Below are positions 1 through 52,217 of a DNA stretch of 60,183 nt, piece after piece; the first letter of the stretch is position 1, and each line of letters opens with the position of its first letter. Location: NCBI GenBank assembly GCA_964360265.1, contig CAYHUY010000002.1, positions 1 through 60,183 on the forward strand, given 5' to 3'. The stretch is from an uncultured Gammaproteobacteria bacterium (lineage in GTDB: Bacteria; Patescibacteriota; Microgenomatia; Levybacterales; GWA1-39-11). The notes beneath the pieces are model-generated. The model was given only the letters and a program-made list of their open reading frames with translations. It searched no databases and was not told where the DNA came from. Both the position numbers and the translations under genes were made by a program.

Positions 1-56
1 TCGAACCTGAATAGACAGATCCAAAGTCTGTCGTCCTACCATTAGACGATCTCCCA
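1..56 (-). tRNA. tRNA-Gln(TTG), 3' end cut by window edge
   Basis: Minus strand reads TGGGAGA-TC-GTCT-AATGGTA-GGAC. The anticodon stem is ACAGA/TCTGT with loop CTTTGGA. The T-arm start CAGGTTCGA runs off the window. Confidence 0.8.
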
Positions 57-190
57 GATCAACCCCCAGCGATGGCGGGCGGGCGAACCGGCAATAGATA
101 TCTAATTATATCCGAAGCGTAAGTTTGCTTCAAGAAGATCCCCTAAAACATGGGGGGCTTTGTGGAGAATATCTTTATCAAAGAATCGTG

Positions 191-262
191 AGCGGGCGAA
201 GGGAATCGAACCCTCCACATCTTCCTTGGCAAGGAAGCATTCTACCAATGAACTACGCCCGC
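191..262 (-). tRNA. tRNA-Gly(GCC)
   Basis: Minus strand reads GCGGGCG-TA-GTTC..GAAT. The anticodon stem is CTTCC/GGAAG with loop TTGCCAA. The T-arm is GAGGG-TTCGATT-CCCTT and the acceptor is CGCCCGC-T. Confidence 0.9.
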
Positions 263-283
263 ACTTAAACAACGTCGAATTTG

Positions 284-356
284 TGCCTAGAGCAGGAATC
301 GAACCCGCATAACATGTTCTTCAGACATGCGCCTTGACCACGTTGGCAATCTAGGC
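284..356 (-). tRNA. tRNA-Phe(GAA) with an atypical D-arm
   Basis: Acceptor is GCCTAGA/TCTAGGC. The anticodon stem is CATGT/ACATG with loop CTGAAGA, and the T-arm is GCGGG-TTCGATT-CCTGC. The D-arm GCC-AACGTGGTCAA-GGC resembles class II tRNAs, but the variable region is short. Confidence 0.75.
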
Positions 357-378
357 GGAAAAGGTATTATACCAAATG

Positions 379-561
379 TGGATCCCAGAGGACTCGAACC
401 TCTGACATCTTCGGTGTAAACGAAGCGCCTCGCCTGCCTGGACTATGTGGACCCTGCAAGACTTGAACTTGCGACCTTCTCGGTGTAAACGAGACGCTCT
501 AGCCAACTGAGCTAAGGGTCCAGGCATTGTCGGGCAGGTCTACCAACTGAGCTAGGGATCC
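379..561 (-). tRNA. tRNA-Val(TAC) split in the D-arm (5' part 539..561, 3' part 379..428, 110-nt insert 429..538)
   Basis: 561->539 reads GGATCCC-TA-GCTC-AGTTGGTA-GA. 428->379 reads GC-G-CTTCG-TTTACAC-CGAAG-ATGTC-AGAGG-TTCGAGT-CCTCT-GGGATCC-A. Joined, the two parts form a perfect cloverleaf. Whether it is functional or a disrupted gene is unknown. Confidence 0.6.
448..521 (-). tRNA. tRNA-Val(TAC), complete, inside the insert of the split tRNA-Val
   Basis: Reads GGACCCT-TA-GCTC-AGTTGGCTA-GAGC-G-TCTCG-TTTACAC-CGAGA-AGGTC-GCAAG-TTCAAGT-CTTGC-AGGGTCC-A, 74 nt, with all stems paired. Confidence 0.9.
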
Positions 562-562
562 A

Positions 563-652
563 TGGTGCCGAGGACAGGACTTGAACCTGCACGTCTTTTT
601 TAAGGACACAAGAACCTCAATCTTGCGTGTATACCAATTTCACCACCTCGGC
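563..652 (-). tRNA. tRNA-Leu(GAG), class II, CCA encoded
   Basis: Acceptor is GCCGAGG/CCTCGGC-A-CCA. The anticodon stem is CAAGA/TCTTG with loop TTGAGGT. It has a long variable arm and the T-loop TTCAAGT. Confidence 0.9.
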
Positions 653-763
653 CTCTATTTGCTAATTATGCCTTCGGTGTTAAGCCGTAGCTCACACCTC
701 GGCGTGCTTTGATTTTACAAAAAACGAACCAATAAGACAAGGATCTCTGCTATAATTATTTTT

Positions 764-1708
764 ATGGAGATTGGATTTATTATTTTAACAATCCTCGGTC
801 TAACATTATTCGAAATAATTACTTCGATAGATAACGCTGTTATTAACGCTGAGGTCCTATCCACCATGGGAAAGCGCGCAAGGAAATTCTTCCTTTTCTG
901 GGGAATACTCTTTGCAGTATTTATTGTCAGAGGACTACTTCCATTGCTTATAGTTTTCCTTTCAAATCCGTCCTTGGGACTTATGGGCGCGCTCACCGCA
1001 ACCTTCTCAGGAGATCCTGCAGTTCATGCGGCAATTGAGGCATCTTCTCCAATTCTTCTTATTGGTGGTGGGGTGTTTTTGGTGTTTTTGTTTTTTAACT
1101 GGCTTTTTCTTGAACCTAAGAATTATGGACTACGTGGTGAACATTTTTTTGAGCGCCAGGGAGCTTGGTTCTTTGCAATTGTTTCAATCTTGCTTTCGGT
1201 AATCGTCTGGTTCGCATTAGGAAAAAGTCCCATGATGGCGTTTGGGGCGGTTATTGGCTCAACGGCATTTTTTATAATTCACGGATTCAGGCAATATGCC
1301 GAACAACAAGAAAAAAGACTACTAATAGGAGGGATGTCCGATGTCTCAAAAGTTGCGTATCTTGAGGTCTTAGATACGACATTCTCAATAGACGGAGTAG
1401 TTGGAGCTTTTGCTTTCACTCTTTCAGTACCGATTATATTAATAGGAAACGGCATTGGAGCTATAGTTCTGCGACAGCTAACGGTTTCAAACATAGAGAG
1501 AATTAAGAAGTATAAATATTTAAAGAATGGGGCAATGTATTCTATCTTGTTCTTAGGAACAATAATGATTCTTGATAGTTTTGGTTATCACATTCCGCCA
1601 TACGTTTCACCCATAATTACGTTTGGAACAGTAGCTTACTTCTTTCAAAAATCACGAATTGAGATGCGCGATATTGAAGCCGCCCTCACGCCAAAAATAT
1701 CTTCTTAG
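764..1708 (+). CDS. multi-pass integral membrane protein, DUF475/TerC-like
   Basis: 314-aa hydrophobic ORF with two S-x-D-N/G motifs (SIDNAVINAEVL and FSIDGVVGAF), as recalled for the DUF475 family. Confidence 0.7.
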   Translation: MEIGFIILTILGLTLFEIITSIDNAVINAEVLSTMGKRARKFFLFWGILFAVFIVRGLLPLLIVFLSNPSLGLMGALTATFSGDPAVHAAIEASSPILLIGGGVFLVFLFFNWLFLEPKNYGLRGEHFFERQGAWFFAIVSILLSVIVWFALGKSPMMAFGAVIGSTAFFIIHGFRQYAEQQEKRLLIGGMSDVSKVAYLEVLDTTFSIDGVVGAFAFTLSVPIILIGNGIGAIVLRQLTVSNIERIKKYKYLKNGAMYSILFLGTIMILDSFGYHIPPYVSPIITFGTVAYFFQKSRIEMRDIEAALTPKISS

Positions 1709-2164: not shown

Positions 2165-2966
2165 GGGTTGGAAGCTAGATAACCCTCCGGGTTGCTTAGG
2201 TTGGAACCTCTTCTTTTTTGTTTATATTTGTAGTAAGATGGTCTAGTGACTACTAACAGAAAAGTGGTATTTAATAATGGGTATATTTACCATATATTCA
2301 ATCGTGGGATTGACAGAAGGAATGTATTTACCGAATTTCGTGAATATTCAAGAGCCTTAGATCTAATAAAGTACTATAGATATCAAGATACTCCAGTAAG
2401 CTATTCGAAGTTGCTACAGCAACCTAGAGAAATGAGGAGTGATGTATTAAGGGAACTTGCGAGAAACGAAACGCACGTTAACATACTCACATACTGTCTT
2501 ATGCCTAATCATTTCCACTTAATGCTTCAGCAGAATGCAGATAAAGGCGTACCAACTTTTGTTTCCAATTTTACCAACGCATACACCAAATATTTTAATA
2601 CCAAACACGAAAGGAATGGTCCAATGTTCGAAGGTGTATTCAAAGCTGTTTTTGTGGAAAGCGACGAACAATTAATTCATTTGTCACGCTATATCCACCT
2701 CAACCCCGTAGTGGCTAGTATCATAAATGAGACCGATATAGAGCGGTATAAATGGTCATCTTTCTCTAATTATGTCTCGCCCGTAGTAAACGATGAAAGG
2801 ATCGTGGATAGCGATTTAGTGCTAAGTGTTGTAGGTTCAAAACAGACATATCGCAAGTTTGTTATGGACCATGTAGATTATGCTAAGAAATTACATATGA
2901 TTAAGCATCTTACTTTTGAATAAAGAAAGGGTTGGAAGCTAGATAACCCTCCGGGTTGCTTAGGTT
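2165..2966 (+). mobile_element. RAYT unit: Y1 transposase gene bracketed by identical REP-like repeats (family A)
   Basis: The 38-nt string GGGTTGGAAGCTAGATAACCCTCCGGGTTGCTTAGGTT occurs at 2165..2202 and 2929..2966 in the same orientation. It contains the hairpin AACCC-TCC-GGGTT. Confidence 0.8.
2246..2923 (+). CDS. REP-associated tyrosine transposase (RAYT, IS200-like Y1 HUH family)
   Basis: HUH motif in YCLMPNHFHLMLQ and catalytic Tyr context SRYIHLNPV. GTG start, 225 aa. Confidence 0.85.
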   Translation: MTTNRKVVFNNGYIYHIFNRGIDRRNVFTEFREYSRALDLIKYYRYQDTPVSYSKLLQQPREMRSDVLRELARNETHVNILTYCLMPNHFHLMLQQNADKGVPTFVSNFTNAYTKYFNTKHERNGPMFEGVFKAVFVESDEQLIHLSRYIHLNPVVASIINETDIERYKWSSFSNYVSPVVNDERIVDSDLVLSVVGSKQTYRKFVMDHVDYAKKLHMIKHLTFE

Positions 2967-8119: not shown

Positions 8120-8193
8120 GGATTCGTAGCTCAGTTGGTTAGAGCGTTACATTGACATTGTAAAGGCCACAGGTTCGAATCCTGTCGAGTCCA
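8120..8193 (+). tRNA. tRNA-Val(GAC)
   Basis: Reads GGATTCG-TA-GCTC-AGTTGGTTA-GAGC-G-TTACA-TTGACAT-TGTAA-AGGCC-ACAGG-TTCGAAT-CCTGT-CGAGTCC-A. Confidence 0.9.
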
Positions 8194-8210
8194 CAGTCCA
8201 GGCAGGCGGG

Positions 8211-8263
8211 GCGTTGCATTGACATTGCAAAGGTCACAGGTTCGAATCCTGTCGGATCCACCA
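8211..8263 (+). other. orphan tRNA-Val(GAC) 3' portion (position 24 to CCA), preceded by a conserved 17-nt spacer
   Basis: Reads GC-G-TTGCA-TTGACAT-TGCAA-AGGTC-ACAGG-TTCGAAT-CCTGT-CGGATCC-A-CCA. No matching 5' half lies directly upstream other than that of tRNA 8120..8193. Confidence 0.7.
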
Positions 8264-8274
8264 GCGCAACGAAA

Positions 8275-8676
8275 ATGAATAACTATCGAGGAGTTATCAT
8301 CGAAGAATCTCTTGAGAATAAAGAAGTTCTCAAAAAACTTAAGATCATCTCAACAAAAATTGAGAAGGTTACGGAAAAACATATGACTCCATGGCTTACG
8401 CAATGGACATTGCACACCGTACAAATTCCAGAAAATAAAGCAAAAGAAATTGCGCAAGAGATTAGCAAGTCATTAGACCAAAATCATATGGGTTCGTGGT
8501 ACACGGATTTTAAGAATAAAATCCACCATTATATTATTTTCCGCGATAAAATTTTCTATATAGACCGGACAAGTAAAGAACAGTATAACGAAGCGAAACG
8601 CTATGGCATTTCACTTGGCATACCTGAATATCAACTAATATCTCCAGATACTCAAAATTATTCGGACGAAGCATGA
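8275..8676 (+). CDS. hypothetical protein
   Basis: 133-aa ORF whose stop overlaps the next start (ATGA), so it is probably co-transcribed with the glycosylase gene. Confidence 0.55.
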   Translation: MNNYRGVIIEESLENKEVLKKLKIISTKIEKVTEKHMTPWLTQWTLHTVQIPENKAKEIAQEISKSLDQNHMGSWYTDFKNKIHHYIIFRDKIFYIDRTSKEQYNEAKRYGISLGIPEYQLISPDTQNYSDEA

Positions 8677-9641
8677 AGCTTAAAAAGCCTAAAACCTTTT
8701 TTCTCTATCCTAAATTCCCATTTCACTTTGACGGAACTTTTTATAAACCCTCACATTTCCCTAATAAATTAAAATTAGATGATTGGAAGCCGGGTAAATA
8801 TTGGCAAAGCTTACGATTGGGTAAAAAACTCTATGGATTAAAAATAGAAAATGCTGGACCCGTTACTAAACCTGAGCTTAAAGTTTCAGTTTTTTCAAAT
8901 AAGAACCTTATGGAAGAGGAGATCGAAAAAATTAAAAAAGAAATCATTTGGCGTTTTGAGCTAGATGTAGACATGAAAGAATTTAATGAATTAGGAAAGA
9001 AAGACAGGAGATTTTATCCAGTTTTCAAAAAATGGATGGGGATGAGAAATGTCAGTCAATACACTCTTTACGAACTTTTAATCATAGCTATTCTTCTTCA
9101 AAACGCCACCGTACGAAGGAGCCAGCAAATGCTAGATGCGCTCATTGGAAAATTTGGCACAAAAGTTGAATTTGACAAAAAGGAACTTTGGGCTATTTGG
9201 CTTCCCGAAGATTTGGAAAAAGTATCGGAACAAGTGTTGCGAGATTTGAAAATTGGCTATCGCGCAAAGTTTATAAAACGCCTCTCCCAAGATTTTGCCA
9301 AAGGAATAATTGACGAAATGAGTGTGCGCAATAAAAATAAAGACTTGGCAAATAAAGAATTACTTAAGCTGTATGGGGTTGGACCAGAAACTGCTAGAAT
9401 TCTTTTGTTTGAGGTATATCACCACTACGATGTTTTTGATCATATCTCCCCATGGCAGCAAAAAATCTACTCCCGGTTATTCTACGGAAAAGAGTTAGTC
9501 CCCGCAAATAAAATTCGCGATGATATCCAAAAACGATATGAGAAATATTCAATGCTTGCAGTTCATTACATTTGGGAGGATGTTTTTTGGAGGCGGAAAA
9601 ACGAAAAGATAGAGTGGCTTGAAAAAGAAATACGGCTTTAG
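8673..9641 (+). CDS. HhH-GPD superfamily DNA glycosylase (AlkA/Ogg-like)
   Basis: Helix-hairpin-helix signature LKLYGVGPETARILLFEV, an upstream LLIIAILLQNATV helix, and an AlkA-like N-terminal extension. Confidence 0.65.
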   Translation: MKLKKPKTFFLYPKFPFHFDGTFYKPSHFPNKLKLDDWKPGKYWQSLRLGKKLYGLKIENAGPVTKPELKVSVFSNKNLMEEEIEKIKKEIIWRFELDVDMKEFNELGKKDRRFYPVFKKWMGMRNVSQYTLYELLIIAILLQNATVRRSQQMLDALIGKFGTKVEFDKKELWAIWLPEDLEKVSEQVLRDLKIGYRAKFIKRLSQDFAKGIIDEMSVRNKNKDLANKELLKLYGVGPETARILLFEVYHHYDVFDHISPWQQKIYSRLFYGKELVPANKIRDDIQKRYEKYSMLAVHYIWEDVFWRRKNEKIEWLEKEIRL

Positions 9642-9692
9642 ATTCAAAAAAGAATTTCTCAGATGTATTGAACCTGCAGGGACTCCATTGCT

Positions 9693-9744
9693 CCTAGGTG
9701 TAGCTACAATTCCACCTCCCAGGTGGATTAGGTAGTCCACACTA
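9693..9744. repeat. REP-like element, family D
   Basis: CCTAGGTG-tagctacaatt-CCACCTCCCAGGTGG-attaggtagt-CCACACTAG. Its last arm contains the lysA-like stop codon. Confidence 0.65.
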
Positions 9745-11058
9745 GTCATTAAAGCCGGGGAAATTCATTATTGTGTTGAAGTAATCATCCATAGTTCTTT
9801 CCCTCCTTATTTTTAAAACCGATCCGTCGGGTCTTAACAAAAGCTCTTTTGCTCCCAGTTGTCCATTGTATTCATTCGCCATGGCGATTCCATGAGCCCC
9901 GGCATCGTGAATAACAACAACGTCGTCTGGGTGAACCTCGGGTACTTCTCTCTGTTTTGCCCACTTGTCATTATTCTCACAAAGCGATCCTGTTATATCA
10001 ACTTTCATAACTCTTGTTCCTCCTTCTTTTCCTAAGACCGTTGCGTGATGATATGCTGTTTCGTATATCGCAACTCTTGGCATATTTGTAGTGCTTCCAT
10101 CAAGACCTACATAGTTTCTGTATTTTTCTGTAACATGTCTTACTCTTGCTACATAATATCCGTAGGGGCCGGTTACAAACCTCCCACATTCCATTGTAAT
10201 TTGAAGAGGATCAAGACCCTTTGCTGATATCATCTGCTGATAATCTCTTTGAACTTGCTTGGCAACCGCTTTTATATTCACGGGCCTATGCTCACCGGGT
10301 TTGTATGCTATTCCTACACCGCCTCCAAGGTTAATAAAAGATATTCGTACGCCAAGTTGTTGATCAAGCTCTGCAACCAAACCAAATAGCATTCGCGCGG
10401 TTTCGGCAAAATACTCCGGATCTCTTTCGTTTGAGGCAACCATGGTATGAAGCCCAAACCGCGTGACTCCTTTTTGCTTAGCTTGTCTATAGGCGTCAAA
10501 CAATTGATCCTTTCTCAAGCCGTATTTTGCTTCCTGAGGATCACCAATTATCTCATTCCCTATTCTTAATGGTCCAGGATTGTATCTAAAAGCCAATGTC
10601 GAAGGAAGACCAACGTGCTCTTCTAAAAATAGCAAGTGGGTCATGTCGTCAAGATTAATGATCCCTCCAAGCTTCTTTGCTAAAGCAAATTGGTCTGCTG
10701 GCGTATTATTAGAGGTAAACATGATCTTATCGCCTGAAAGTCCGACACGTCTCGCCATTTCAAGCTCTACCATCGAAGAACAATCCGCCCCAAACCCTTC
10801 CTCCGTTAAAATTCTTAAGATGTGGGGGTTAGGTAATGCTTTTACAGCAAAGAAGTTTGTGAAACCAGGCGTCCAGGAGAAGGCATCTTTAAATCCTCTT
10901 GCATTCTCCCGAATTCCTTTTTCGTCATAAATAAAAAATGGAGTGGGGTGTTCTTGGGTAATTTGTTCTATTTGCTCGCGAGTAAAAGGTAGCGAGGTTT
11001 CTTTTTCTACCTCGTCGGGTGTAGCAGGCCTACCATTGTAAGCTTCAATATATGACAC
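9742..11058 (-). CDS. lysA: PLP-dependent Orn/DAP/Arg decarboxylase family, probably diaminopimelate decarboxylase
   Basis: FFAVKALPNPHIL (PLP Lys), GGGVGIAY, and CENNDKW...HDAGAHGIAMANEYNG match the LysA-type pattern. Confidence 0.7.
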   Translation of the reverse strand: MSYIEAYNGRPATPDEVEKETSLPFTREQIEQITQEHPTPFFIYDEKGIRENARGFKDAFSWTPGFTNFFAVKALPNPHILRILTEEGFGADCSSMVELEMARRVGLSGDKIMFTSNNTPADQFALAKKLGGIINLDDMTHLLFLEEHVGLPSTLAFRYNPGPLRIGNEIIGDPQEAKYGLRKDQLFDAYRQAKQKGVTRFGLHTMVASNERDPEYFAETARMLFGLVAELDQQLGVRISFINLGGGVGIAYKPGEHRPVNIKAVAKQVQRDYQQMISAKGLDPLQITMECGRFVTGPYGYYVARVRHVTEKYRNYVGLDGSTTNMPRVAIYETAYHHATVLGKEGGTRVMKVDITGSLCENNDKWAKQREVPEVHPDDVVVIHDAGAHGIAMANEYNGQLGAKELLLRPDGSVLKIRRERTMDDYFNTIMNFPGFND

Positions 11059-11103
11059 AATGGCGCGATTATACCCGTTGCTTTAGTATTTTGCAATTGC
11101 CTC

Positions 11104-11132
11104 TTGACGTTCGCTATTTGATTAATTATACT
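11104..11132 (+). promoter_or_regulatory. sigma70-type promoter for the aminotransferase gene
   Basis: TTGACG, 17-nt spacer, TATACT, lying 27 nt upstream of the ATG at 11159. Confidence 0.55.
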
Positions 11133-11158
11133 TCACGTCAATTCCTGTCCGTCAAGAT

Positions 11159-12370
11159 ATGGCGCGCGAAATACCCGGCCCTCAGCTACAAGAACCGCCC
11201 TCAATGCTCCCTGAGGGAGGAGTAAATTTATTTCAAGGCATTAAAGAAGCAAGCGCAAGAGCAGAAGCCATAGGCATTGAGTTGGTTAAACTCTCAATAG
11301 GACAACCTGAAGGATATCCTCTCGAAACAGCGATGGAGAAAGCAGCGGAAGCGATAAAAAGTAGAAATCAAAGCATGCATGAATATCAAGATAACGGCAC
11401 GCCCGGAGTCCCTGGTTTCTGCGAGGGTTTCGTTAGGGCTCACGTAAAAACAGATCTTGACACCAAAAACATCGCTTACCTTCCTACTCCGGGAACAAAA
11501 CCAATGCTTGGTTTATTTTCTCTTGCCTGTGGAGGCGCGGACAAGAAGATCAATATAGCTATGATGACTAATCCCGGATACCCGACTCCAAAAGACTGGG
11601 CAGGAGGATACCTAAAGCACAATGTTTTTGAGCTACCTTTAAATCCTGAAAACAAGTTCAGATTCTCTGCGAAAGACATTCCTGACGGGATTAATTTGCT
11701 AATGATTAATTATCCTCATAACCCAAGCGGGCAGGTCGCAACTAAAGAACAACTTGAAGAACTTTGCCAGTATTGCCAGACCAAAGGAATAAGGCTTGTC
11801 AACGATGCGGCTTATATTGCCTTGAGTCATACCGATGAAGGTTCCTCTCTTACGGATGTGGCCGTAAAATACCCGGGGCTTTCATGGATAGAGCTTTTCT
11901 CTTCCTCAAAGACTTTGGGGAACGCTACAGGATGGAGAATAGGAGCAGCAGTAGGATCCCCAATATTTATTAAGGATCTGGCTACTATCAAAGGCAATAC
12001 CGACAGTGGTTTTGCCGCACCTCTTGCAGCAGGGGTTCTTTTTGCAGTCGAAAATGATAAAGAAGGAATTGAAGCTAATCGAAAGAAGTACGGAACAAGA
12101 ATTAATATTCTTATGGACATACTTACCGGCAACGGGATGGAATTAGCAGTAATACCCCAAGCGGGATTTTTCACATTATGGAAAGCGCCAGGGCTCGCTT
12201 TCGGAGAAAAGATGCAAGACGCGGCGGATTTTAATAACAGAATGATTAACCAAACAGGCATAGTCGGTGTGCCATTTCACCCATATATTAGGTACGCTGT
12301 TTGTGTAGATGTTGAATCTGCCGCTGATAAAATACAAGCTGCATTTAAAAAAGCCGCTGTTTCCTACTAA
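11159..12370 (+). CDS. class I/II aminotransferase, possibly LL-diaminopimelate aminotransferase
   Basis: PLP-lysine context SSSKTLGNATGWRIG and NYPHNPSG. It is divergent from the lysA-like gene, which suggests a lysine-pathway role. Confidence 0.6.
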   Translation: MAREIPGPQLQEPPSMLPEGGVNLFQGIKEASARAEAIGIELVKLSIGQPEGYPLETAMEKAAEAIKSRNQSMHEYQDNGTPGVPGFCEGFVRAHVKTDLDTKNIAYLPTPGTKPMLGLFSLACGGADKKINIAMMTNPGYPTPKDWAGGYLKHNVFELPLNPENKFRFSAKDIPDGINLLMINYPHNPSGQVATKEQLEELCQYCQTKGIRLVNDAAYIALSHTDEGSSLTDVAVKYPGLSWIELFSSSKTLGNATGWRIGAAVGSPIFIKDLATIKGNTDSGFAAPLAAGVLFAVENDKEGIEANRKKYGTRINILMDILTGNGMELAVIPQAGFFTLWKAPGLAFGEKMQDAADFNNRMINQTGIVGVPFHPYIRYAVCVDVESAADKIQAAFKKAAVSY

Positions 12371-12430
12371 TTCATCGTTCATTCTCTTTAATTTTGCTAT
12401 ACTGGATTTGTGAATCGAGTAGACAGAAAT

Positions 12431-12486
12431 CCCGAGGTGTCAATAGAAATCCACCTCCGAGAGGGAATAGCTTGGACACCTAGAGA
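12431..12486. repeat. REP-like element, family C (degenerate 3' half)
   Basis: CCCGAGGTG-tcaatagaaat-CCACCTCCGAGAGGG-aatagcttgga-CACCTAGAG. Confidence 0.6.
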
Positions 12487-23528: not shown

Positions 23529-24840
23529 AATAGTTGTTGTAATTGACAGCGGCGGTCGTGGTGCTGCGCTCGTCCATAAATACTCTCAAAGTCCCCATGT
23601 CAAAAATATAATCGCAATCCCAGGAAATGATTTAATGCAATTAAACTCCAGTACGCCTGTTCGTACCTTTCCGGAATTAAAAACCACAGACATTGGCGAG
23701 ATTATTCAAGTATGTAAAAAGTATAAGGTCAATTTGGTGGATGTTGCTCAGGACAATGCAGTTGAGGTAGGCTTAACAGATAAACTCATCGAACAAGGTT
23801 TTAACGTAATCGGACCAACAAAAGCTGCAGGACAAATTGAATGGGACAAGGCATGGGCAAGGGATTTCATGAAAAGACACAAACTCCCGATCCCTTTTTA
23901 TGAGACCTTCAATTCGCATAGCAAGGCAATTAAGTTTGTCAACAAAAATCCTAAAAAGCGCTTTTTTGTAAAAGCGGCGGGATTAGCCGATGGAAAGGGA
24001 GCAATTCCTGTAGAAAACGCTAGGGAAGCGATCGGCGCAATCAAACAGATGTCAATGTTTGGAAAAGCTGGTGAAACGTTTGTAATAGAAGAGTGGCTTG
24101 ATGGCGAGGAGTTCTCAATGTTCGCAATATCAGATGGTAAAACATTTCAAATCGTTGGCTCTGCTCAAGACTATAAAAGATTGTATGATGGCGACGTGGG
24201 CCCAAATACCGGCGGTATCGGATGCAGCGCACCCGCGTTGATTGTTGATAAAAATATATACAAACAGGCTGAATTAATACTTAAAACTGCACTCTCTGGC
24301 TTGACTCAAGAAGGTCGTATCTATAAAGGAATCCTATATTTAGGAGCAATTGTTGTTCGCGGCAAAGTTTTTGTTATTGAATTCAATGCAAGGTGGGGTG
24401 ATCCGGAAGCAGAAGTGCTTATTCCAAGCATTAAAAATGATCTTTACGAACTCTCAATGTCAACATGCAATGGAACATTAAACAAAATGAAGATTCGAAC
24501 CGATAAAAAGGCTCGCGTTGTTATTACGGGTTCTCTAAAAGCTAATGCTGCAAAGACCGAGAGAGAGCTTTTTGGCATAAGGGATATATTAAGATTACCT
24601 AAAGTAATTATTTACGGCACCAGGGTAACTCAAGATGGTAGCAAATATTTTGTTTCTTCAGGAAGATTATTTCATATAGTCGGTGAAGGGGAAGACATTA
24701 TCCAAGCACGACAACGGGCATATGAGGCTATGGAACGAATTTCTATCGAAGGAGATAATCTCCATTATCGGACAGACATTGGGTGGAGAGATGTTGAGCG
24801 AATAAGAAAAGGTTGGAAGCTAGACAACCCGGAGGGTTGA
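23518..24840 (+). CDS. purD: phosphoribosylamine-glycine ligase
   Basis: KIVVVIDSGGRGAALVHKYSQSPHV at the N-terminus, an ATP-grasp core, and EFNARWGDPE. The last 9 codons and the stop lie inside a REP-A copy. Confidence 0.85.
   Translation: MADKIVVVIDSGGRGAALVHKYSQSPHVKNIIAIPGNDLMQLNSSTPVRTFPELKTTDIGEIIQVCKKYKVNLVDVAQDNAVEVGLTDKLIEQGFNVIGPTKAAGQIEWDKAWARDFMKRHKLPIPFYETFNSHSKAIKFVNKNPKKRFFVKAAGLADGKGAIPVENAREAIGAIKQMSMFGKAGETFVIEEWLDGEEFSMFAISDGKTFQIVGSAQDYKRLYDGDVGPNTGGIGCSAPALIVDKNIYKQAELILKTALSGLTQEGRIYKGILYLGAIVVRGKVFVIEFNARWGDPEAEVLIPSIKNDLYELSMSTCNGTLNKMKIRTDKKARVVITGSLKANAAKTERELFGIRDILRLPKVIIYGTRVTQDGSKYFVSSGRLFHIVGEGEDIIQARQRAYEAMERISIEGDNLHYRTDIGWRDVERIRKGWKLDNPEG
24811..24840. repeat. 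REP-like element, family A variant (hairpin flipped)
   Basis: GGTTGGAAGCTAGACAACCCGGAGGGTTGA. The stem AACCC/GGGTT is kept, but the loop is GGA instead of TCC. Confidence 0.7.
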
Positions 24841-24844
24841 TTTT

Positions 24845-24900
24845 CCCGAGGTGTCAAGGGGAATCCACCTCCGAGGTGTAATAGCTTTACCACCTCGGGA
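24845..24900. repeat. REP-like element, family C (best copy)
   Basis: CCCGAGGTG-tcaaggggaat-CCACCTCCGAGGTG-taatagcttta-CCACCTCGGGA. Confidence 0.75.
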
Positions 24901-25014
24901 TAACTACTACAATATGGTCATCAAATGCGGAAACGCAACTACATCCGCATCAAACTCCGTTAGCTCTTGCGGTTGTCTAAATTCATGTTAAAATGTCTGG
25001 ACCGCCCATAATTT

Positions 25015-25698
25015 ATGGCCGACCCGCATGAACAACTTAGAAGAACTACTTCGATATCTCTTGAGGCCGCGAAAAGAGCGGAACAATCAAAGCGGATAGA
25101 TCTCCTTGACAAACAAAATCCTTTATTTCAAGCACTTTTAACAAGAAGCCCTGCTTTTGCGGAAAGTTTACCTAGTATCTCATTAGATTGGCAGATAATG
25201 TTAAGAAGTTATGGTGTTTCTTTCTTAAAAGATTATCCTTATAACACGCCTTTGTACGGCCTGATTGGGTGGGACGCTTGCCGTCTGATTGTTGATTTAG
25301 ATATGGACCATAATGCCGTAGCCCTAAGATTCCATGCTTATGACAAAACAGGCGACATGACCGTAGAGGAAGGGATGCTTGTGGCTGACGGAAAAGTGAC
25401 AATTCTAAACGAAGGAAGATTCGATATACCATGGAATCCTTATAGAAATATGGTGATGGCGGCAATAGATAAGGCAACCGGGAGAACAGATGATCCCGAA
25501 ACTCTAAGATGCTTATTTGATTACTTCTCCGAAGACATTGGGGCTCTTCCAGGTGTTCGGGATAGCTGCGGAAGTTCTTTTGGTCAATTCGCAACTCATG
25601 CTTACTTTGGAATTCGATCGGGCGAAACGACAATGAACCCTCCCCTTGCTGTGGGCTGGCCCATGACCGAAGGCCACTATCTTCTCTCACATCCCTAG
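25015..25698 (+). CDS. hypothetical protein (orphan, bounded by REP elements)
   Basis: 227-aa ORF with a protein-like composition. The antisense ORF 25172..25741 looks like noise. The stop TAG lies within the CCTAGG arm of REP-D. Confidence 0.55.
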   Translation: MADPHEQLRRTTSISLEAAKRAEQSKRIDLLDKQNPLFQALLTRSPAFAESLPSISLDWQIMLRSYGVSFLKDYPYNTPLYGLIGWDACRLIVDLDMDHNAVALRFHAYDKTGDMTVEEGMLVADGKVTILNEGRFDIPWNPYRNMVMAAIDKATGRTDDPETLRCLFDYFSEDIGALPGVRDSCGSSFGQFATHAYFGIRSGETTMNPPLAVGWPMTEGHYLLSHP

Positions 25699-25746
25699 GT
25701 GGAGCTACAAATCCACCCCCGAGGTGGGATAGATTCGCCACCTAGG
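25694..25746. repeat. REP-like element, family D
   Basis: CCTAGGTGG-agctacaaat-CCACCCCCGAGGTGG-gatagattcg-CCACCTAGG. Confidence 0.75.
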
Positions 25747-25758
25747 AAAATGTAAGCT

Positions 25759-25814
25759 CCCGAGGTGTCAATAGCAGTCCACCTCCGAGGTGTATTAGGT
25801 TGGACACCTCGGGA
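25759..25814. repeat. REP-like element, family C
   Basis: CCCGAGGTG-tcaatagcagt-CCACCTCCGAGGTG-tattaggttgga-CACCTCGGGA. Confidence 0.75.
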
Positions 25815-25851
25815 ATTTTGACCTTATCGTGAAATTTGGTATTATATTTCT

Positions 25852-28021: not shown

Positions 28022-28775
28022 CCCTGTGTGTAAGCACAAACCACACCGGGTGTGTAGTAGCTTTACACAACGGGATTTTTGTGCTTTCATATTAATATGC
28101 CCATAAGAACTACACCACTGGCGAATGGGGAATATTATCACATAATAAATAGGGGGGTTGCCCAGATACCAATATTTCTTAACGCACGAGATTATCAAAG
28201 ATTTATAGAGACCTTCACTTATTATATGAATGGAAAAATAACTACTCGTTATTCCTTGTCTGATAACAAACCCAAGCATGACCCTGCAAACCAAATAGTT
28301 GAAGTCGTTAACTATTGTCTTATGCCAAATCACTTTCACTTTTTACTAAAACAAAACGAGGATGAAGGAATAAGAAACTTTATTCGTAAAGCAACTAATA
28401 GTTATGCAAAATATTTCAATATTAAGCGCAAGCGAAAGGGTCCATTATTTGAAGGTACATTTAAAGCGGTTAGAGTTGCTACTAATGAACAATTGCTTCA
28501 CTTATCAAGGTACATACATTTGAATCCACTTATTGGCTACGCTACCAAAAATCTAAATTCCTATAAATGGTCTTCGTATCCTGAGTTTTTAGGGAATTAT
28601 GAATTGCAAATTTGTTCGAAAGATATAATATTAGAGCAGTTTAAATCTTCAAAAGATTACGAGTTATTCGTTTTGGATCATATAGACTACGCAAAAAGAT
28701 TAGATCAAATAAAGCATCAACTTTTAGAAGAAGCCTGATTCCGGGTGTGCAAGCACAAAACACACCCGGTGTGTA
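28022..28775 (+). mobile_element. second RAYT unit with its own REP family (B)
   Basis: Left flank is CCCTGTGTG-taagcacaaac-CACACCGGGTGTG-tagtagcttta-CACAACGGGA. Right flank is CCGGGTGTG-caagcacaaaa-CACACCCGGTGTG. Both have the same orientation. Confidence 0.75.
28097..28738 (+). CDS. REP-associated tyrosine transposase (RAYT), paralog of 2246..2923
   Basis: YCLMPNHFHFLLKQ (HUH) and SRYIHLNPL (catalytic Tyr). The ATG at 28097 is preferred over the upstream TTG. Confidence 0.85.
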   Translation: MPIRTTPLANGEYYHIINRGVAQIPIFLNARDYQRFIETFTYYMNGKITTRYSLSDNKPKHDPANQIVEVVNYCLMPNHFHFLLKQNEDEGIRNFIRKATNSYAKYFNIKRKRKGPLFEGTFKAVRVATNEQLLHLSRYIHLNPLIGYATKNLNSYKWSSYPEFLGNYELQICSKDIILEQFKSSKDYELFVLDHIDYAKRLDQIKHQLLEEA

Positions 28776-51948: not shown

Positions 51949-52020
51949 AAACGCAAAACATAAAACCCAAAATTGGAGATTCCAACAATGACGACCTTAG
52001 TACCCAGGTGTAATCCTAAG

Positions 52021-52171
52021 ACACCTCGAAGGTGTTTGTCGAAGGCGCTTGTCGTTGACAGACACCTTCGACTGTTCCACGGGGTTAGTGCCATCGATAG
52101 CGTCGACGGTGTTCTTCTCCGAAGAGGAGGTGCGAAGCTAGACAACCCGGAGGGTTGATTAGGTTGGAACC
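52021..52171. repeat. mosaic of hairpin repeats ending in a REP-A copy
   Basis: ACACCT-cga-AGGTGT at 52021..52035. GTCGAAGG...CCTTCGAC spans 52038..52072. GCGAAGCTAGACAACCCGGAGGGTTGATTAGGTTGGAACC lies at 52132..52171. Confidence 0.65.
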
Positions 52172-52217
52172 TATTCTTCTTTGGAATAACTTGTTCAATT
52201 AGATATAATTGAAACCT

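What the first reader, a model, noticed from the sequence alone, without database searches (positions are those of the whole stretch)
379..561. tRNA-Val(TAC) split in its D-arm by a 110-nt insert that carries a complete second tRNA-Val(TAC)
On the minus strand, 561->539 is a clean tRNA 5' segment: GGATCCC-TA-GCTC-AGTTGGTA-GA. 428->379 is the exactly complementary remainder: GC-G-CTTCG-TTTACAC-CGAAG-ATGTC-AGAGG-TTCGAGT-CCTCT-GGGATCC-A.

Joined, they give a flawless 73-nt cloverleaf with 7/7 acceptor pairs and a restored GCTC/GAGC D-stem. The 110 nt between them is 17 nt, then an independent, fully paired 74-nt tRNA-Val(TAC) with different stems (448..521), then 19 nt.

The insert begins CCTGCC, and its 3' flank contains GGCAGG. 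TGCCTGGA at the 5' flank/inner-tRNA junction also complements TCCAGGCA. The two outer halves can therefore be zipped together once the inner tRNA is folded or excised.

This recalls archaeal split or intron-containing tRNAs. I know of no bacterial precedent for a D-arm (position 23/24) interruption with a nested tRNA.

Competing reading: the outer gene is a tRNA inactivated by insertion of a small tRNA-carrying element.
Basis: partly seen in the sequence, partly recalled or inferred. Interest (0 to 1): 0.85.

Follow-up and report, generated by a model that had tools for sequence, protein, structure and literature searches.

The report
tRNA-carrying mini-insert splitting a tRNA-Val gene
In this Patescibacteria (CPR) genome, a tRNA-Val gene has been cut precisely in two by a 110-bp insert that brings its own complete tRNA-Val with the same anticodon; the insert belongs to a small, recurring and apparently undescribed family, and most likely replaces the gene it broke rather than acting as an intron.

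Summary
On the minus strand, 561-539 and 428-379 are positions 1-23 and 24-73 of one tRNA-Val(TAC). They are separated by 17 nt, a full tRNA-Val(TAC) at 521-448 (Rfam 71 bits), and 19 nt.

The outer gene is the resident one. Relative L056 has an uninterrupted gene 73/73 identical to the joined halves at the same site, between tRNA-Leu(GAG) and tRNA-Phe. Eight related lineages have the empty site. The 110 bp went in exactly between positions 23 and 24, with no duplication and no loss.

The insert belongs to a family:
- Contigs L035 (Val-CAC) and L036 (Val-TAC) have the same layout.
- All share the same ends: CCTGCCCGAC after ..TAGA, and AGTCCAGGCAGGCGRG before GCG. These ends form an imperfect inverted repeat.
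- The window holds a second, half-resolved copy at tRNA-Val(GAC), 8120-8263.
- Two other CPR genomes carry an analogous nested tRNA-Ile(TAT).
- The cargo anticodon always equals that of the split gene.

There is no bulge-helix-bulge motif, no group I core and no Rfam family besides tRNA.

Best reading (confidence about 0.6): a small non-autonomous insertion element that carries a replacement tRNA, with the outer halves as relics. In L035 the outer 3' half is broken, and in the second window locus the 5' half is gone. A functional split or spliced outer tRNA is not excluded (about 0.15-0.2).

The parts
539..561 (-). 5' segment (positions 1-23) of the resident tRNA-Val(TAC), directly after tRNA-Leu(GAG)
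   Evidence: Sequence. Identical to positions 1-23 of the uninterrupted genes in L056 and L007.
522..538 (-). Left flank L of the insert, CCTGCCCGACAATGCCT. The first 10 nt, CCTGCCCGAC (538->529), are invariant across the family.
   Evidence: the same 10-mer follows ..TAGA in L035 and L036. It pairs with the right flank in the folds.
448..521 (-). Inner (cargo) tRNA-Val(TAC), complete cloverleaf
   Evidence: Rfam RF00005 71.3 bits; ARAGORN. Outside the anticodon arm it most resembles the cargo tRNA of L035.
429..447 (-). Right flank R of the insert, CATAGTCCAGGCAGGCGAG. AGTCCAGGCAGGCGRG (444->429) is conserved across the family.
   Evidence: The exact 12-mer TCCAGGCAGGCG occurs only twice in the window, each time immediately 5' of a tRNA-Val 3' segment.
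379..428 (-). 3' segment (positions 24-73) of the resident tRNA-Val(TAC)
   Evidence: Identical to positions 24-73 of the uninterrupted L056 gene.
8120..8193 (+). Second locus: complete tRNA-Val(GAC). It corresponds to the cargo, or to a 5'-half/cargo recombinant.
   Evidence: Rfam 74.8 bits; sequence.
8194..8210 (+). Second locus: R-type linker CAGTCCAGGCAGGCGGG
8211..8263 (+). Second locus: orphan 3' segment (positions 24-76, ending in CCA) of a tRNA-Val(GAC). No matching 5' segment or L motif is found in the window.
   Evidence: Partial Rfam hit covering model positions 9-63, 33.1 bits. No second L motif or 5' half.
563..652 (-). Context: tRNA-Leu(GAG), first gene of the cluster Leu-[Val]-Phe-Gly-Gln. 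A promoter-like site lies at 740->712, and no terminator-like site lies in 1-900.
   Evidence: The cluster is conserved in relatives.

Best explanation
The 110 bp at 429-538 is one copy of a small, non-coding insertion element. It consists of a complete tRNA-Val clamped between two conserved, imperfectly complementary ends: CCTGCC-C-GAC at the left and GTC-CA-GGCAGG-CGRG at the right.

Shown:
- It entered the resident tRNA-Val(TAC) gene of this Microgenomates-type CPR bacterium in a single precise event between positions 23 and 24 (D-stem 3' strand), with no target duplication or deletion.
- The same kind of element is inserted at the same nucleotide of other tRNA-Val genes in other genomes.

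Inferred:
- The split resident gene no longer makes a working tRNA.
- The element is tolerated because its cargo supplies the same isoacceptor. This would explain why cargo and target anticodons always match.
- The cargo is matured normally by RNase P and 3' processing from the cluster transcript. The clamp stem keeps it folding as its own domain despite the flanking look-alike half-tRNAs.
- The near-identical direct repeats (outer halves versus cargo) then recombine or convert. This produces half-resolved forms such as window 8120-8263, decayed forms such as L035, and mosaic tRNA-Val genes in relatives.

Unknown: how the element moves. No enzyme is encoded in it. Candidates are a trans-acting transposase or recombinase that recognises the ends, or homologous recombination using the tRNA halves as arms after DNA uptake.
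For: 1. Filled versus empty site. Alignment A1 shows that the window differs from L056, L004 and L053 by exactly the 110 bp. The joined halves are 73/73 identical to the L056 gene.

2. Empty sites. Eight TerC-defined relatives have an uninterrupted gene at the syntenic site: L004-6, L007, L048, L051, L052, L053, L055 and L056.

3. A family.
- L035 and L036 have 5' half | CCTGCCCGAC.. | tRNA-Val | ..AGTCCAGGCAGGCGGG | 3' half, with the same junction.
- L036 is reproduced in an independent assembly, L071.
- The window has a second R + 3'-half copy at 8194-8263.

4. The element does not track the locus. The window element resembles the L035 element (a Val-CAC locus) more than the L036 element (the same Val-TAC locus) in both flanks and cargo.

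5. Cargo anticodon equals target anticodon in every case: TAC, TAC, CAC and GAC, plus Ile-TAT in L013 and L014. This is expected if the cargo must replace a destroyed gene.

6. Outer genes are not always maintained. The outer 3' half of L035 has an unpaired T-stem and an acceptor strand that does not match its 5' half (read by eye). The second window locus lacks a 5' half.

7. The exactly complementary break points (23|24) argue for one insertion event rather than independent integration scars.
Against: - No transposase, integrase or homing endonuclease is linked to any copy. No autonomous relative with the same ends was found (viral scans).
- There is no target-site duplication, and the ends match no transposon family I could test.
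- The outer halves are flawless in the window and in L036.
- In the analogous tRNA-Ile case, the outer halves are 76/77 identical between two genomes whose flanks are only 79-83% identical. This needs either selection on the halves or frequent gene conversion from the cargo.
- The persistence of deletion-prone direct repeats there also hints at some benefit of the nested state.
- The family rests on few independent instances: three full Val copies, one partial, and one Ile lineage pair.
- The rest of the genome was not available, so I could not check for another tRNA-Val(TAC).
Confidence: 0.6

Rival explanations
1. Functional tRNA-in-tRNA. The nested locus yields two working tRNAs. Host RNase P and RNase Z excise the inner tRNA, which serves as a built-in processing signal. 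The conserved L/R stem, the acceptor stem and the D-stem then hold the outer halves together. The result is either a two-piece tRNA, comparable to fragmented 23S rRNA after intervening-sequence removal, or a tRNA that is trimmed and religated by an unknown bacterial activity.
For: - The most conserved nucleotides of the insert are exactly those that zip the halves together.
- The last two nucleotides of R, together with G24 C25, give GGGC. This can replace GAGC as the D-stem 3' strand, which would place the extra helix in the variable part of the D-loop (read from the sequence).
- The outer halves are perfect in the window and in L036.
- In the tRNA-Ile analogue, the clamp stem covaries between L013 and L014, and the outer halves are far more conserved than the flanks.
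- The whole region folds much better than shuffles.
Against: - There is no bulge-helix-bulge motif, no ribozyme and no Rfam hit other than tRNA.
- No known bacterial activity removes 17- and 19-nt tails at exactly 23|24.
- The tRNA-Ile analogue is split in the anticodon loop, where an unligated or tailed molecule cannot decode.
- If the outer tRNA stayed functional, nothing would force cargo and target anticodons to match, yet they match in every instance seen.
- The outer gene in L035 is broken, and the second window locus has no 5' half.
- Clamp covariation and half conservation are also explained by selection for correct folding of the cargo and by gene conversion. Conversion is evidenced by the identical T-arms in the second window locus and the identical acceptor and anticodon arms in L036.
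Confidence: 0.17
2. Recombination debris rather than a mobile family. The arrangement would be a by-product of integrase-type elements that target tRNA genes, or of repair after breaks. It would have been copied among tRNA-Val paralogues only by gene conversion and would have no mobility of its own.
For: - tRNA-Val genes in this clade are recombination-prone. The L007 gene has a foreign acceptor 3' strand. The outer 3' half of L035 looks recombined at the T-loop. Relatives' genes are mosaics of a few acceptor, anticodon-stem and T-arm modules.
- L013 carries several extra tRNA-Ile 3' fragments.
- A 4.2-kb segment absent from relatives sits next to the second window locus.
Against: - The break points of the two halves are exactly complementary, with no overlap and no gap. 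Independent integration events would not give this.
- The crossover lies in the D-stem, not in the anticodon loop, T-loop or 3' end used by tRNA-targeting integrases (established knowledge).
- There is no duplicated core.
- The same conserved ends and the same junction recur in at least three unrelated contigs and at three isoacceptor genes.
- Partial tRNA copies are otherwise rare: among 103 tRNAs in 30 CPR loci, only the motif-selected loci had them.
Confidence: 0.12
3. Assembly or chimera artefact.
For: The source is a metagenome-assembled genome. Several related contigs end inside or next to tRNA-Val: L007, L049, L050 and L054.
Against: - The identical structure appears in independent assemblies from different samples: the window equals L001 and L002, and L036 equals L071.
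- The same architecture appears in unrelated data sets.
Confidence: 0.02

Closest known systems
Archaeal split and intron-containing tRNAs (Nanoarchaeum equitans split tRNAs, Caldivirga tri-split tRNAs, Thermoproteales non-canonical introns)
   Same: A tRNA coding sequence is interrupted at a non-canonical position. Complementary sequences flanking the break can zip the two halves together. In archaea such introns behave as mobile elements (PMC10714607 summary of Fujishima et al.; general knowledge).
   Different: The organism here is a bacterium (CPR). There is no bulge-helix-bulge motif at the junctions. The intervening sequence contains a whole tRNA with the same anticodon. No splicing endonuclease or ligase was seen. 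Related copies show decay of the outer gene.
tRNA gene disruption by a mobile element in Caldiarchaeum subterraneum (Sugahara et al. 2012, PMC3293823)
   Same: A fragment of the old tRNA gene is left beside a replacement tRNA gene of the same identity that was brought in with inserted DNA. The state is polymorphic among close relatives.
   Different: There the insert is a 1.8-kb element encoding a recombinase, and only a 5' fragment is left. Here the insert is 110 bp and non-coding, both halves remain with exactly complementary break points, and the ends are a conserved inverted repeat.
Genomic islands and prophages integrated in tRNA genes (tyrosine-integrase att sites)
   Same: A tRNA gene is targeted and its function is restored by element-borne tRNA sequence. 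A displaced tRNA fragment remains. The second window locus (full tRNA + linker + 3' fragment) looks superficially like attL/attR.
   Different: Integrases cross over in the anticodon loop, T-loop or 3' end, and leave a duplicated core with kilobases of element between. Here the break is in the D-stem, the core is 0 bp, the element is 110 bp, and a whole tRNA rather than a 3' part is carried.
MITEs, and palindrome-associated elements derived from IS200/IS605
   Same: Small size, no coding capacity, inverted-repeat ends, recurrence in several genomes. Precise insertion without duplication next to a constant short sequence (..TAGA) resembles IS200/IS605-type insertion. Two Y1_Tnp genes lie in the window.
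   Different: There is no target-site duplication, which DDE-type MITEs have. The two ends lack separate subterminal hairpins, which IS200/IS605 elements have. Only two copies occur in 60 kb, both at tRNA-Val. The element carries a functional-looking tRNA.
Intervening sequences of bacterial 23S rRNA, and tRNA-punctuated processing
   Same: If the rival reading holds, host RNases would cut out a structured insert and leave a fragmented but functional RNA, with a tRNA acting as the processing signal.
   Different: This has not been shown for any tRNA, and nothing here demonstrates such processing.

Membership tests
Archaeal-type (BHB) tRNA intron / split tRNA | Bulge-helix-bulge motif: two 3-nt bulges carrying the splice sites, separated by a 4-bp helix | tested here: not met
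   Read from the sequence and the folds. CCUGCC starts directly at the 5' junction and pairs with GGCAGG, which ends 4 nt before the 3' junction. The exon nucleotides before the 5' junction (GGUA) have no complement before the 3' junction (GGCG). No 3-nt/4-bp/3-nt arrangement is possible.
Archaeal-type (BHB) tRNA intron / split tRNA | Host encodes a splicing endonuclease (EndA) and an RtcB-type ligase | tested here: inconclusive
   The host is a CPR bacterium. The Pfam scans covered 27 window ORFs and showed neither enzyme. About 28 ORFs of 100 aa or more were not scanned, and the rest of the genome was not available.
Archaeal-type (BHB) tRNA intron / split tRNA | Complementary sequences adjoining the two halves that bring them together | tested here: met
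   L (CCUGCC-C-GAC) pairs with R (GUC-CA-GGCAGG) in the window, L035 and L036.
Bacterial group I intron in a tRNA gene | Catalytic core (Rfam Intron_gpI), about 200 nt or more, inserted in the anticodon loop | tested here: not met
   cmscan at E <= 10 on window 1-900 finds only tRNA and noise. The insert is 110 nt and lies in the D-stem.
Integrase-mediated island at a tRNA gene | Crossover in the anticodon loop, T-loop or 3' end, with an identical core duplicated at both junctions | tested here: not met
   The junction is at 23|24 with 0 bp duplicated.
Integrase-mediated island at a tRNA gene | Integrase gene and kilobases of element between the tRNA and its fragment | tested here: not met
   The insert is 110 bp and non-coding. 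No integrase appeared among the scanned ORFs near either locus.
MITE (DDE-transposon derivative) | Terminal inverted repeats | tested here: met
   CCTGCCCGAC versus the reverse complement of GTCCAGGCAGG, imperfect, conserved in 3 full copies.
MITE (DDE-transposon derivative) | Target-site duplication | tested here: not met
   There is none in the Val family. The tRNA-Ile analogue does have TATA on both sides.
MITE (DDE-transposon derivative) | Many dispersed copies per genome | tested here: inconclusive
   Only two copies occur in the 60-kb window, both at tRNA-Val. The whole genome was not available.
IS200/IS605-derived palindromic element | No duplication; insertion 3' of a fixed 4-5-nt target; Y1 transposase in the genome | tested here: inconclusive
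   There is no duplication, and ..TAGA precedes the insert in all 3 full copies. Y1_Tnp genes lie at 2246-2923 and 28079-28738. No link between them and the element has been shown.
IS200/IS605-derived palindromic element | Separate subterminal hairpins at the left and right ends | tested here: not met
   The 17-nt and 19-nt flanks pair with each other, not within themselves.

The most novel reading that the evidence does not exclude
The nested locus is a working bacterial tRNA-in-tRNA. RNase P and RNase Z release the inner tRNA. The conserved clamp then holds the outer halves together as a functional two-piece tRNA, or one that is religated. This would be the first split or protein-processed intron-bearing tRNA in Bacteria, carried on a mobile element that uses a tRNA as its own excision signal.
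Probability: 0.15. Interest if true: 0.9.

Novelty: new variant of a known kind. Interest (0 to 1): 0.62.

Why it matters
Mobile DNA that lands in tRNA genes normally repairs the damage by bringing a copy of the 3' part of the gene. Bacterial tRNA introns are self-splicing group I ribozymes in the anticodon loop.

Here a 110-bp non-coding insert cuts the D-stem and brings a whole replacement tRNA clamped by a conserved inverted repeat. It recurs at three tRNA-Val isoacceptor genes in several CPR genomes, and a tRNA-Ile counterpart exists elsewhere in the radiation.

Three consequences follow:
- It is a compact new way for an element to be harmless in an essential gene.
- It explains overlapping or duplicate tRNA calls in CPR genomes. 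ARAGORN reports two overlapping tRNA-Val genes at every copy.
- It offers a source of the mosaic tRNA-Val genes seen in relatives.

If the outer halves turn out to be used, it would bring split tRNAs into Bacteria and give a concrete, testable model for how tRNA genes become split.

Tried and rejected
Leads that went nowhere:
- Archaeal BHB intron: rejected by inspection of both junctions.
- Group I or other ribozyme, or any known RNA family: permissive cmscan on the window region, L035/L036, L013 and L014 gave only tRNA hits.
- R as a degenerate D-arm. cmscan aligns it to model positions 8-26. I kept this only as a resemblance.
- R as a 3'-terminal fragment of a third tRNA. The same 12-mer ends a CPR tRNA-Ile(TAT). 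The evidence is insufficient, because the 12-mer was imposed by the search pattern.
- Phage origin. Viral-contig scans for both junctions found nothing, or only chance matches without tRNA context. The four phage hits of the first scan are an odd 77-nt tRNA-Cys-like gene and are probably unrelated.
- L026/L029, where the motif precedes a tRNA-Arg 3' fragment in a non-CPR contig: judged a partial coincidence with a D-loop sequence.
- A nearby enzyme. The 114-aa ORF beside the L036 copy and the ORFs beside both window loci have no Pfam match.
- Relatives of L036 and L035 reached through neighbouring proteins: synteny was not conserved, so no further filled or empty sites were obtained.
- Tyrosine- or serine-recombinase crossover: no shared core of even 2 bp fits both junctions (reasoned).

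The family's true size is therefore unknown.

Full report
**1. What is in the sequence**

Read on the minus strand, window 561-379 has five parts:
- GGATCCCTAGCTCAGTTGGTAGA, tRNA positions 1-23.
- CCTGCCCGACAATGCCT, 17 nt, called L here.
- A complete 74-nt tRNA-Val(TAC) at 521-448.
- CATAGTCCAGGCAGGCGAG, 19 nt, called R here.
- GCGCTTCG...GGGATCCA, positions 24-73.

The inner gene scores 71.3 bits with Rfam tRNA. ARAGORN calls it, and also calls a second, overlapping 'tRNA-Val' that is really R plus the 3' segment. The joined outer halves are called tRNA-Val(tac). The region folds at -75.1 kcal/mol, z = -4.5 against shuffles, into a nested structure. In that structure the outer acceptor stem, an L/R helix and the inner cloverleaf coexist.

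**2. Which gene is resident**

The window is from a Microgenomates-type CPR bacterium. Its TerC/DUF475 neighbour has best named hits in Levybacteria, Woykebacteria and Curtissbacteria.

I fetched contigs that encode close TerC homologues. These showed the same tRNA cluster, Leu(GAG)-Val(TAC)-Phe(GAA)-Gly(GCC)-Gln(TTG), with a single uninterrupted tRNA-Val(TAC). It appears in eight protein-defined lineages: L004/5/6, L007, L048, L051, L052, L053, L055 and L056.

The L056 gene is 73/73 identical to the window's joined halves. The alignment of filled and empty sites shows exactly 110 extra base pairs between positions 23 and 24, with no duplicated and no missing target base. So the outer gene is the resident gene, and the insert is derived and recent.

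Two other assemblies of the same population carry the identical insert (L001, L002). This excludes an assembly artefact.

**3. It is a family**

The 12-mer TCCAGGCAGGCG from R occurs twice in the window. The second copy is at 8197-8208 (+). There a complete tRNA-Val(GAC) (8120-8193) is followed by CAGTCCAGGCAGGCGGG, and then by positions 24-76 of another tRNA-Val(GAC). No 5' half and no L motif exists for this second locus.

I scanned the metagenome collection for the 12-mer followed by a T-arm. This found two more full copies:

| Locus | 5' half | L | Cargo | R | 3' half |
|---|---|---|---|---|---|
| L036 (same cluster, distant relative) | GGACCCGTGGCTCAGCTGGTTAGA | CCTGCCCGACATACAT | tRNA-Val(TAC) | CCAGTCCAGGCAGGCGGG | Joins the 5' half into a perfect tRNA-Val(TAC) |
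| L035 | GGACTTGTAGCTCAGTGGTAGA | CCTGCCCGACGAATGCCT | tRNA-Val(CAC) | CATAGTCCAGGCAGGCGGG | tRNA-Val(CAC) 3' part |

L036 is reproduced in an independent assembly (L071).

The invariant parts are CCTGCCCGAC directly after ..TAGA, and AGTCCAGGCAGGCG[AG]G directly before GCG. In all three full copies these invariant parts pair with each other: CCUGCC/GGCAGG plus GAC/GUC.

The window element is closest to the L035 element, which sits at a different isoacceptor gene in another organism. It is less like the L036 element at the orthologous locus. The element therefore does not simply track its locus.

**4. A parallel case**

The genome-collection scan hit two other CPR genomes: L013, labelled Saccharibacteria, and L014, labelled Parcubacteria. 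On reading them, both show a tRNA-Ile(TAT) split in the anticodon loop:
- Positions 1-37.
- 78 nt of insert sequence.
- A complete tRNA-Ile(TAT).
- 16-17 nt of insert sequence.
- Positions 34-73, with TATA present on both sides.

A stem again clamps the inner tRNA. It differs in sequence between the two genomes but pairs in both, at -23 and -17 kcal/mol.

So 'a tRNA split by an insert that carries a full copy of the same tRNA inside a clamp' is a recurrent design in CPR. Among 103 tRNAs in the 30 CPR loci I held, only the loci found through the motif had partial copies, so the design is rare.

**5. What it is not**

- Not a BHB intron. The nucleotides after the 5' junction pair with nucleotides that end 4 nt before the 3' junction. 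This leaves 0 and 4 unpaired bases, not two 3-nt bulges around a 4-bp helix. The exon bases before the 5' junction also have no partner before the 3' junction.
- Not a group I intron or other known RNA. Permissive cmscan runs give only tRNA.
- Not an integrase att arrangement. The break is in the D-stem, there is no shared core of even 2 bp, and there are no kilobases of element.
- Not a classical MITE, because there is no target duplication.
- Not an IS200/IS605-type element, because there are no separate end hairpins. Two features do fit that family: the precise, duplication-free insertion after a constant TAGA, and the two Y1_Tnp genes in the window. No connection between them is shown.
- No EndA-like, RtcB-like, integrase or homing-endonuclease gene appeared among the 27 window ORFs scanned against Pfam. 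That is about half of the 58 ORFs of 100 aa or more.
- Five full-text literature searches found no description of a bacterial tRNA split in the D-arm or of a nested tRNA.

**6. How it most likely works**

Shown: a single precise insertion of a conserved-ended, tRNA-bearing 110-bp unit into the cognate tRNA gene, recurring at several genes and genomes.

Inferred: the resident gene is disabled and the cargo replaces it.

Four observations favour this:
- Cargo and target anticodons match in every instance: TAC, TAC, CAC, GAC and Ile-TAT. This is what selection would demand if the target is destroyed. It would not be required if the outer tRNA still worked.
- The outer 3' half of L035 has an unpaired T-stem and an acceptor strand that does not match its 5' half.
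- The second window locus has lost its 5' half and L. This is the product expected from recombination between the 5' half and the first 23 nt of the cargo. The single G-U at 4:69 of that tRNA fits a crossover inside the acceptor stem (inference).
- The tRNA-Ile analogue is split in the anticodon loop, where a tailed or unligated molecule could not decode.

The clamp stem can be explained as keeping the cargo folding on its own, next to sequences that could otherwise mispair with it. The halves and the cargo are direct repeats that recombine and convert. T-arms are identical in the second window locus. Acceptor and anticodon arms are identical in L036. This also accounts for the modular mosaics among relatives' tRNA-Val genes.

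The mobilising activity is unknown.

**7. What keeps the rival alive**

- The outer halves are perfect in the window and in L036.
- The best-conserved bases are the zipper.
- R's last two bases plus G24 C25 can form a continuous D-stem strand. That would put the extra helix in the variable part of the D-loop.
- In the tRNA-Ile pair, the outer halves differ at 1 of 77 positions, while the flanks are 79-83% identical.

Gene conversion from the selected cargo can explain the last point, but I could not separate the two explanations. I put the functional two-piece or spliced outer tRNA at about 0.15-0.2.

**8. Verdict**

The element is a member of a small family that I could not place in any described class. 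The archaeal-intron analogy fails its defining structural test but remains a possible 'works like'.

Novelty: a new variant of tRNA-gene-targeting mobile DNA. Interest is moderate to high, mainly because RNA data on one locus would decide whether Bacteria have a split tRNA.

Noticed in passing
window 8264-12430: A segment of about 4.2 kb lies immediately after the orphan tRNA-Val(GAC) 3' fragment. It holds a 133-aa ORF, an HhH-GPD-like ORF, a diaminopimelate-decarboxylase-like gene and an aminotransferase-like gene. In relatives L004 and L007, the tRNA is followed directly by the DUF5665 gene (window 12531 onward), so this looks like an inserted or rearranged block next to the tRNA.
   Followed up: partly
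window 660-705 (minus strand), upstream of tRNA-Leu(GAG): A 35-nt jumble of tRNA-like pieces, GCCGAGGTGTGAGCTACGGCTTAACACCGAAGGCA. It starts like tRNA-Leu(GAG), contains a Val-like anticodon-arm piece (CTTCGGTGTTAA on the + strand, repeat D2), and ends ..GGCA. It is absent from relative L004.
   Followed up: no
window 2246-2923 and 28079-28738; repeats at 2158-2219, 2922-2966, 9693-9730, 12430-12461, 24804-24903, 25691-25818, 52001-52183: Two IS200-like/REP-associated-type Y1_Tnp genes, plus a dispersed family of palindromic repeats containing GTAG (for example ..GGTGTAGCTACAATTCCACCTCCCAGGTGGATTAGGTAG..). The first Y1_Tnp gene is flanked by 45-nt repeat copies. No sequence link to the L/R ends was seen.
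   Followed up: partly
L013 975-1226 (-) and L014 5231-5478 (-): A nested tRNA-Ile(TAT) in two other CPR genomes: 5' part 1-37, a 78-nt insert containing a 55-nt hairpin whose closing stem covaries (GCTGG/CCAGC versus ACAGG/CCTGT), a full tRNA-Ile(TAT), a 16-17-nt segment that pairs with the end of the 78-nt insert, and 3' part 34-73. TATA occurs three times. L013 also has further inverted and direct 3'-end fragments of the same tRNA.
   Followed up: partly
L036 4755-4826: The cargo tRNA-Val(TAC) of L036 has both classic tertiary pairs swapped: U15-A48 instead of R15-Y48, and A54-U58 instead of U54-A58 (T-loop ATCGTCA). Its acceptor and anticodon arms are identical to those of the split outer gene. 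It scores 60.7 Rfam bits. It may be an unusual but coherent tRNA or a degenerating one.
   Followed up: no
L007 1-87; L049 and L050 contig ends; L054 1-10: The L007 tRNA-Val(TAC) has a 3' acceptor strand (ACCGCCC) that does not pair with its 5' strand but matches the L048 gene. Several related contigs also stop inside or right beside tRNA-Val. This suggests strain-level heterogeneity or recombination at this gene.
   Followed up: no
L008-L011, L028, L034, L041, L043, L044, L047 (phage-like contigs with 20-22 tRNA genes): An odd 77-nt tRNA-Cys(GCA)-like gene lies directly after tRNA-Val(TAC). It shares the 16-mer CAGTCCAGGCAGGCGG with the window's second locus, and that stretch forms one strand of a 9-bp hairpin. 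It may be chance.
   Followed up: partly
L005 6665-7030 versus L004: A GIY-YIG-domain ORF sits inside the tRNA cluster of L005 but is missing from the otherwise collinear L004. This is reminiscent of free-standing homing endonucleases in phage tRNA regions.
   Followed up: no
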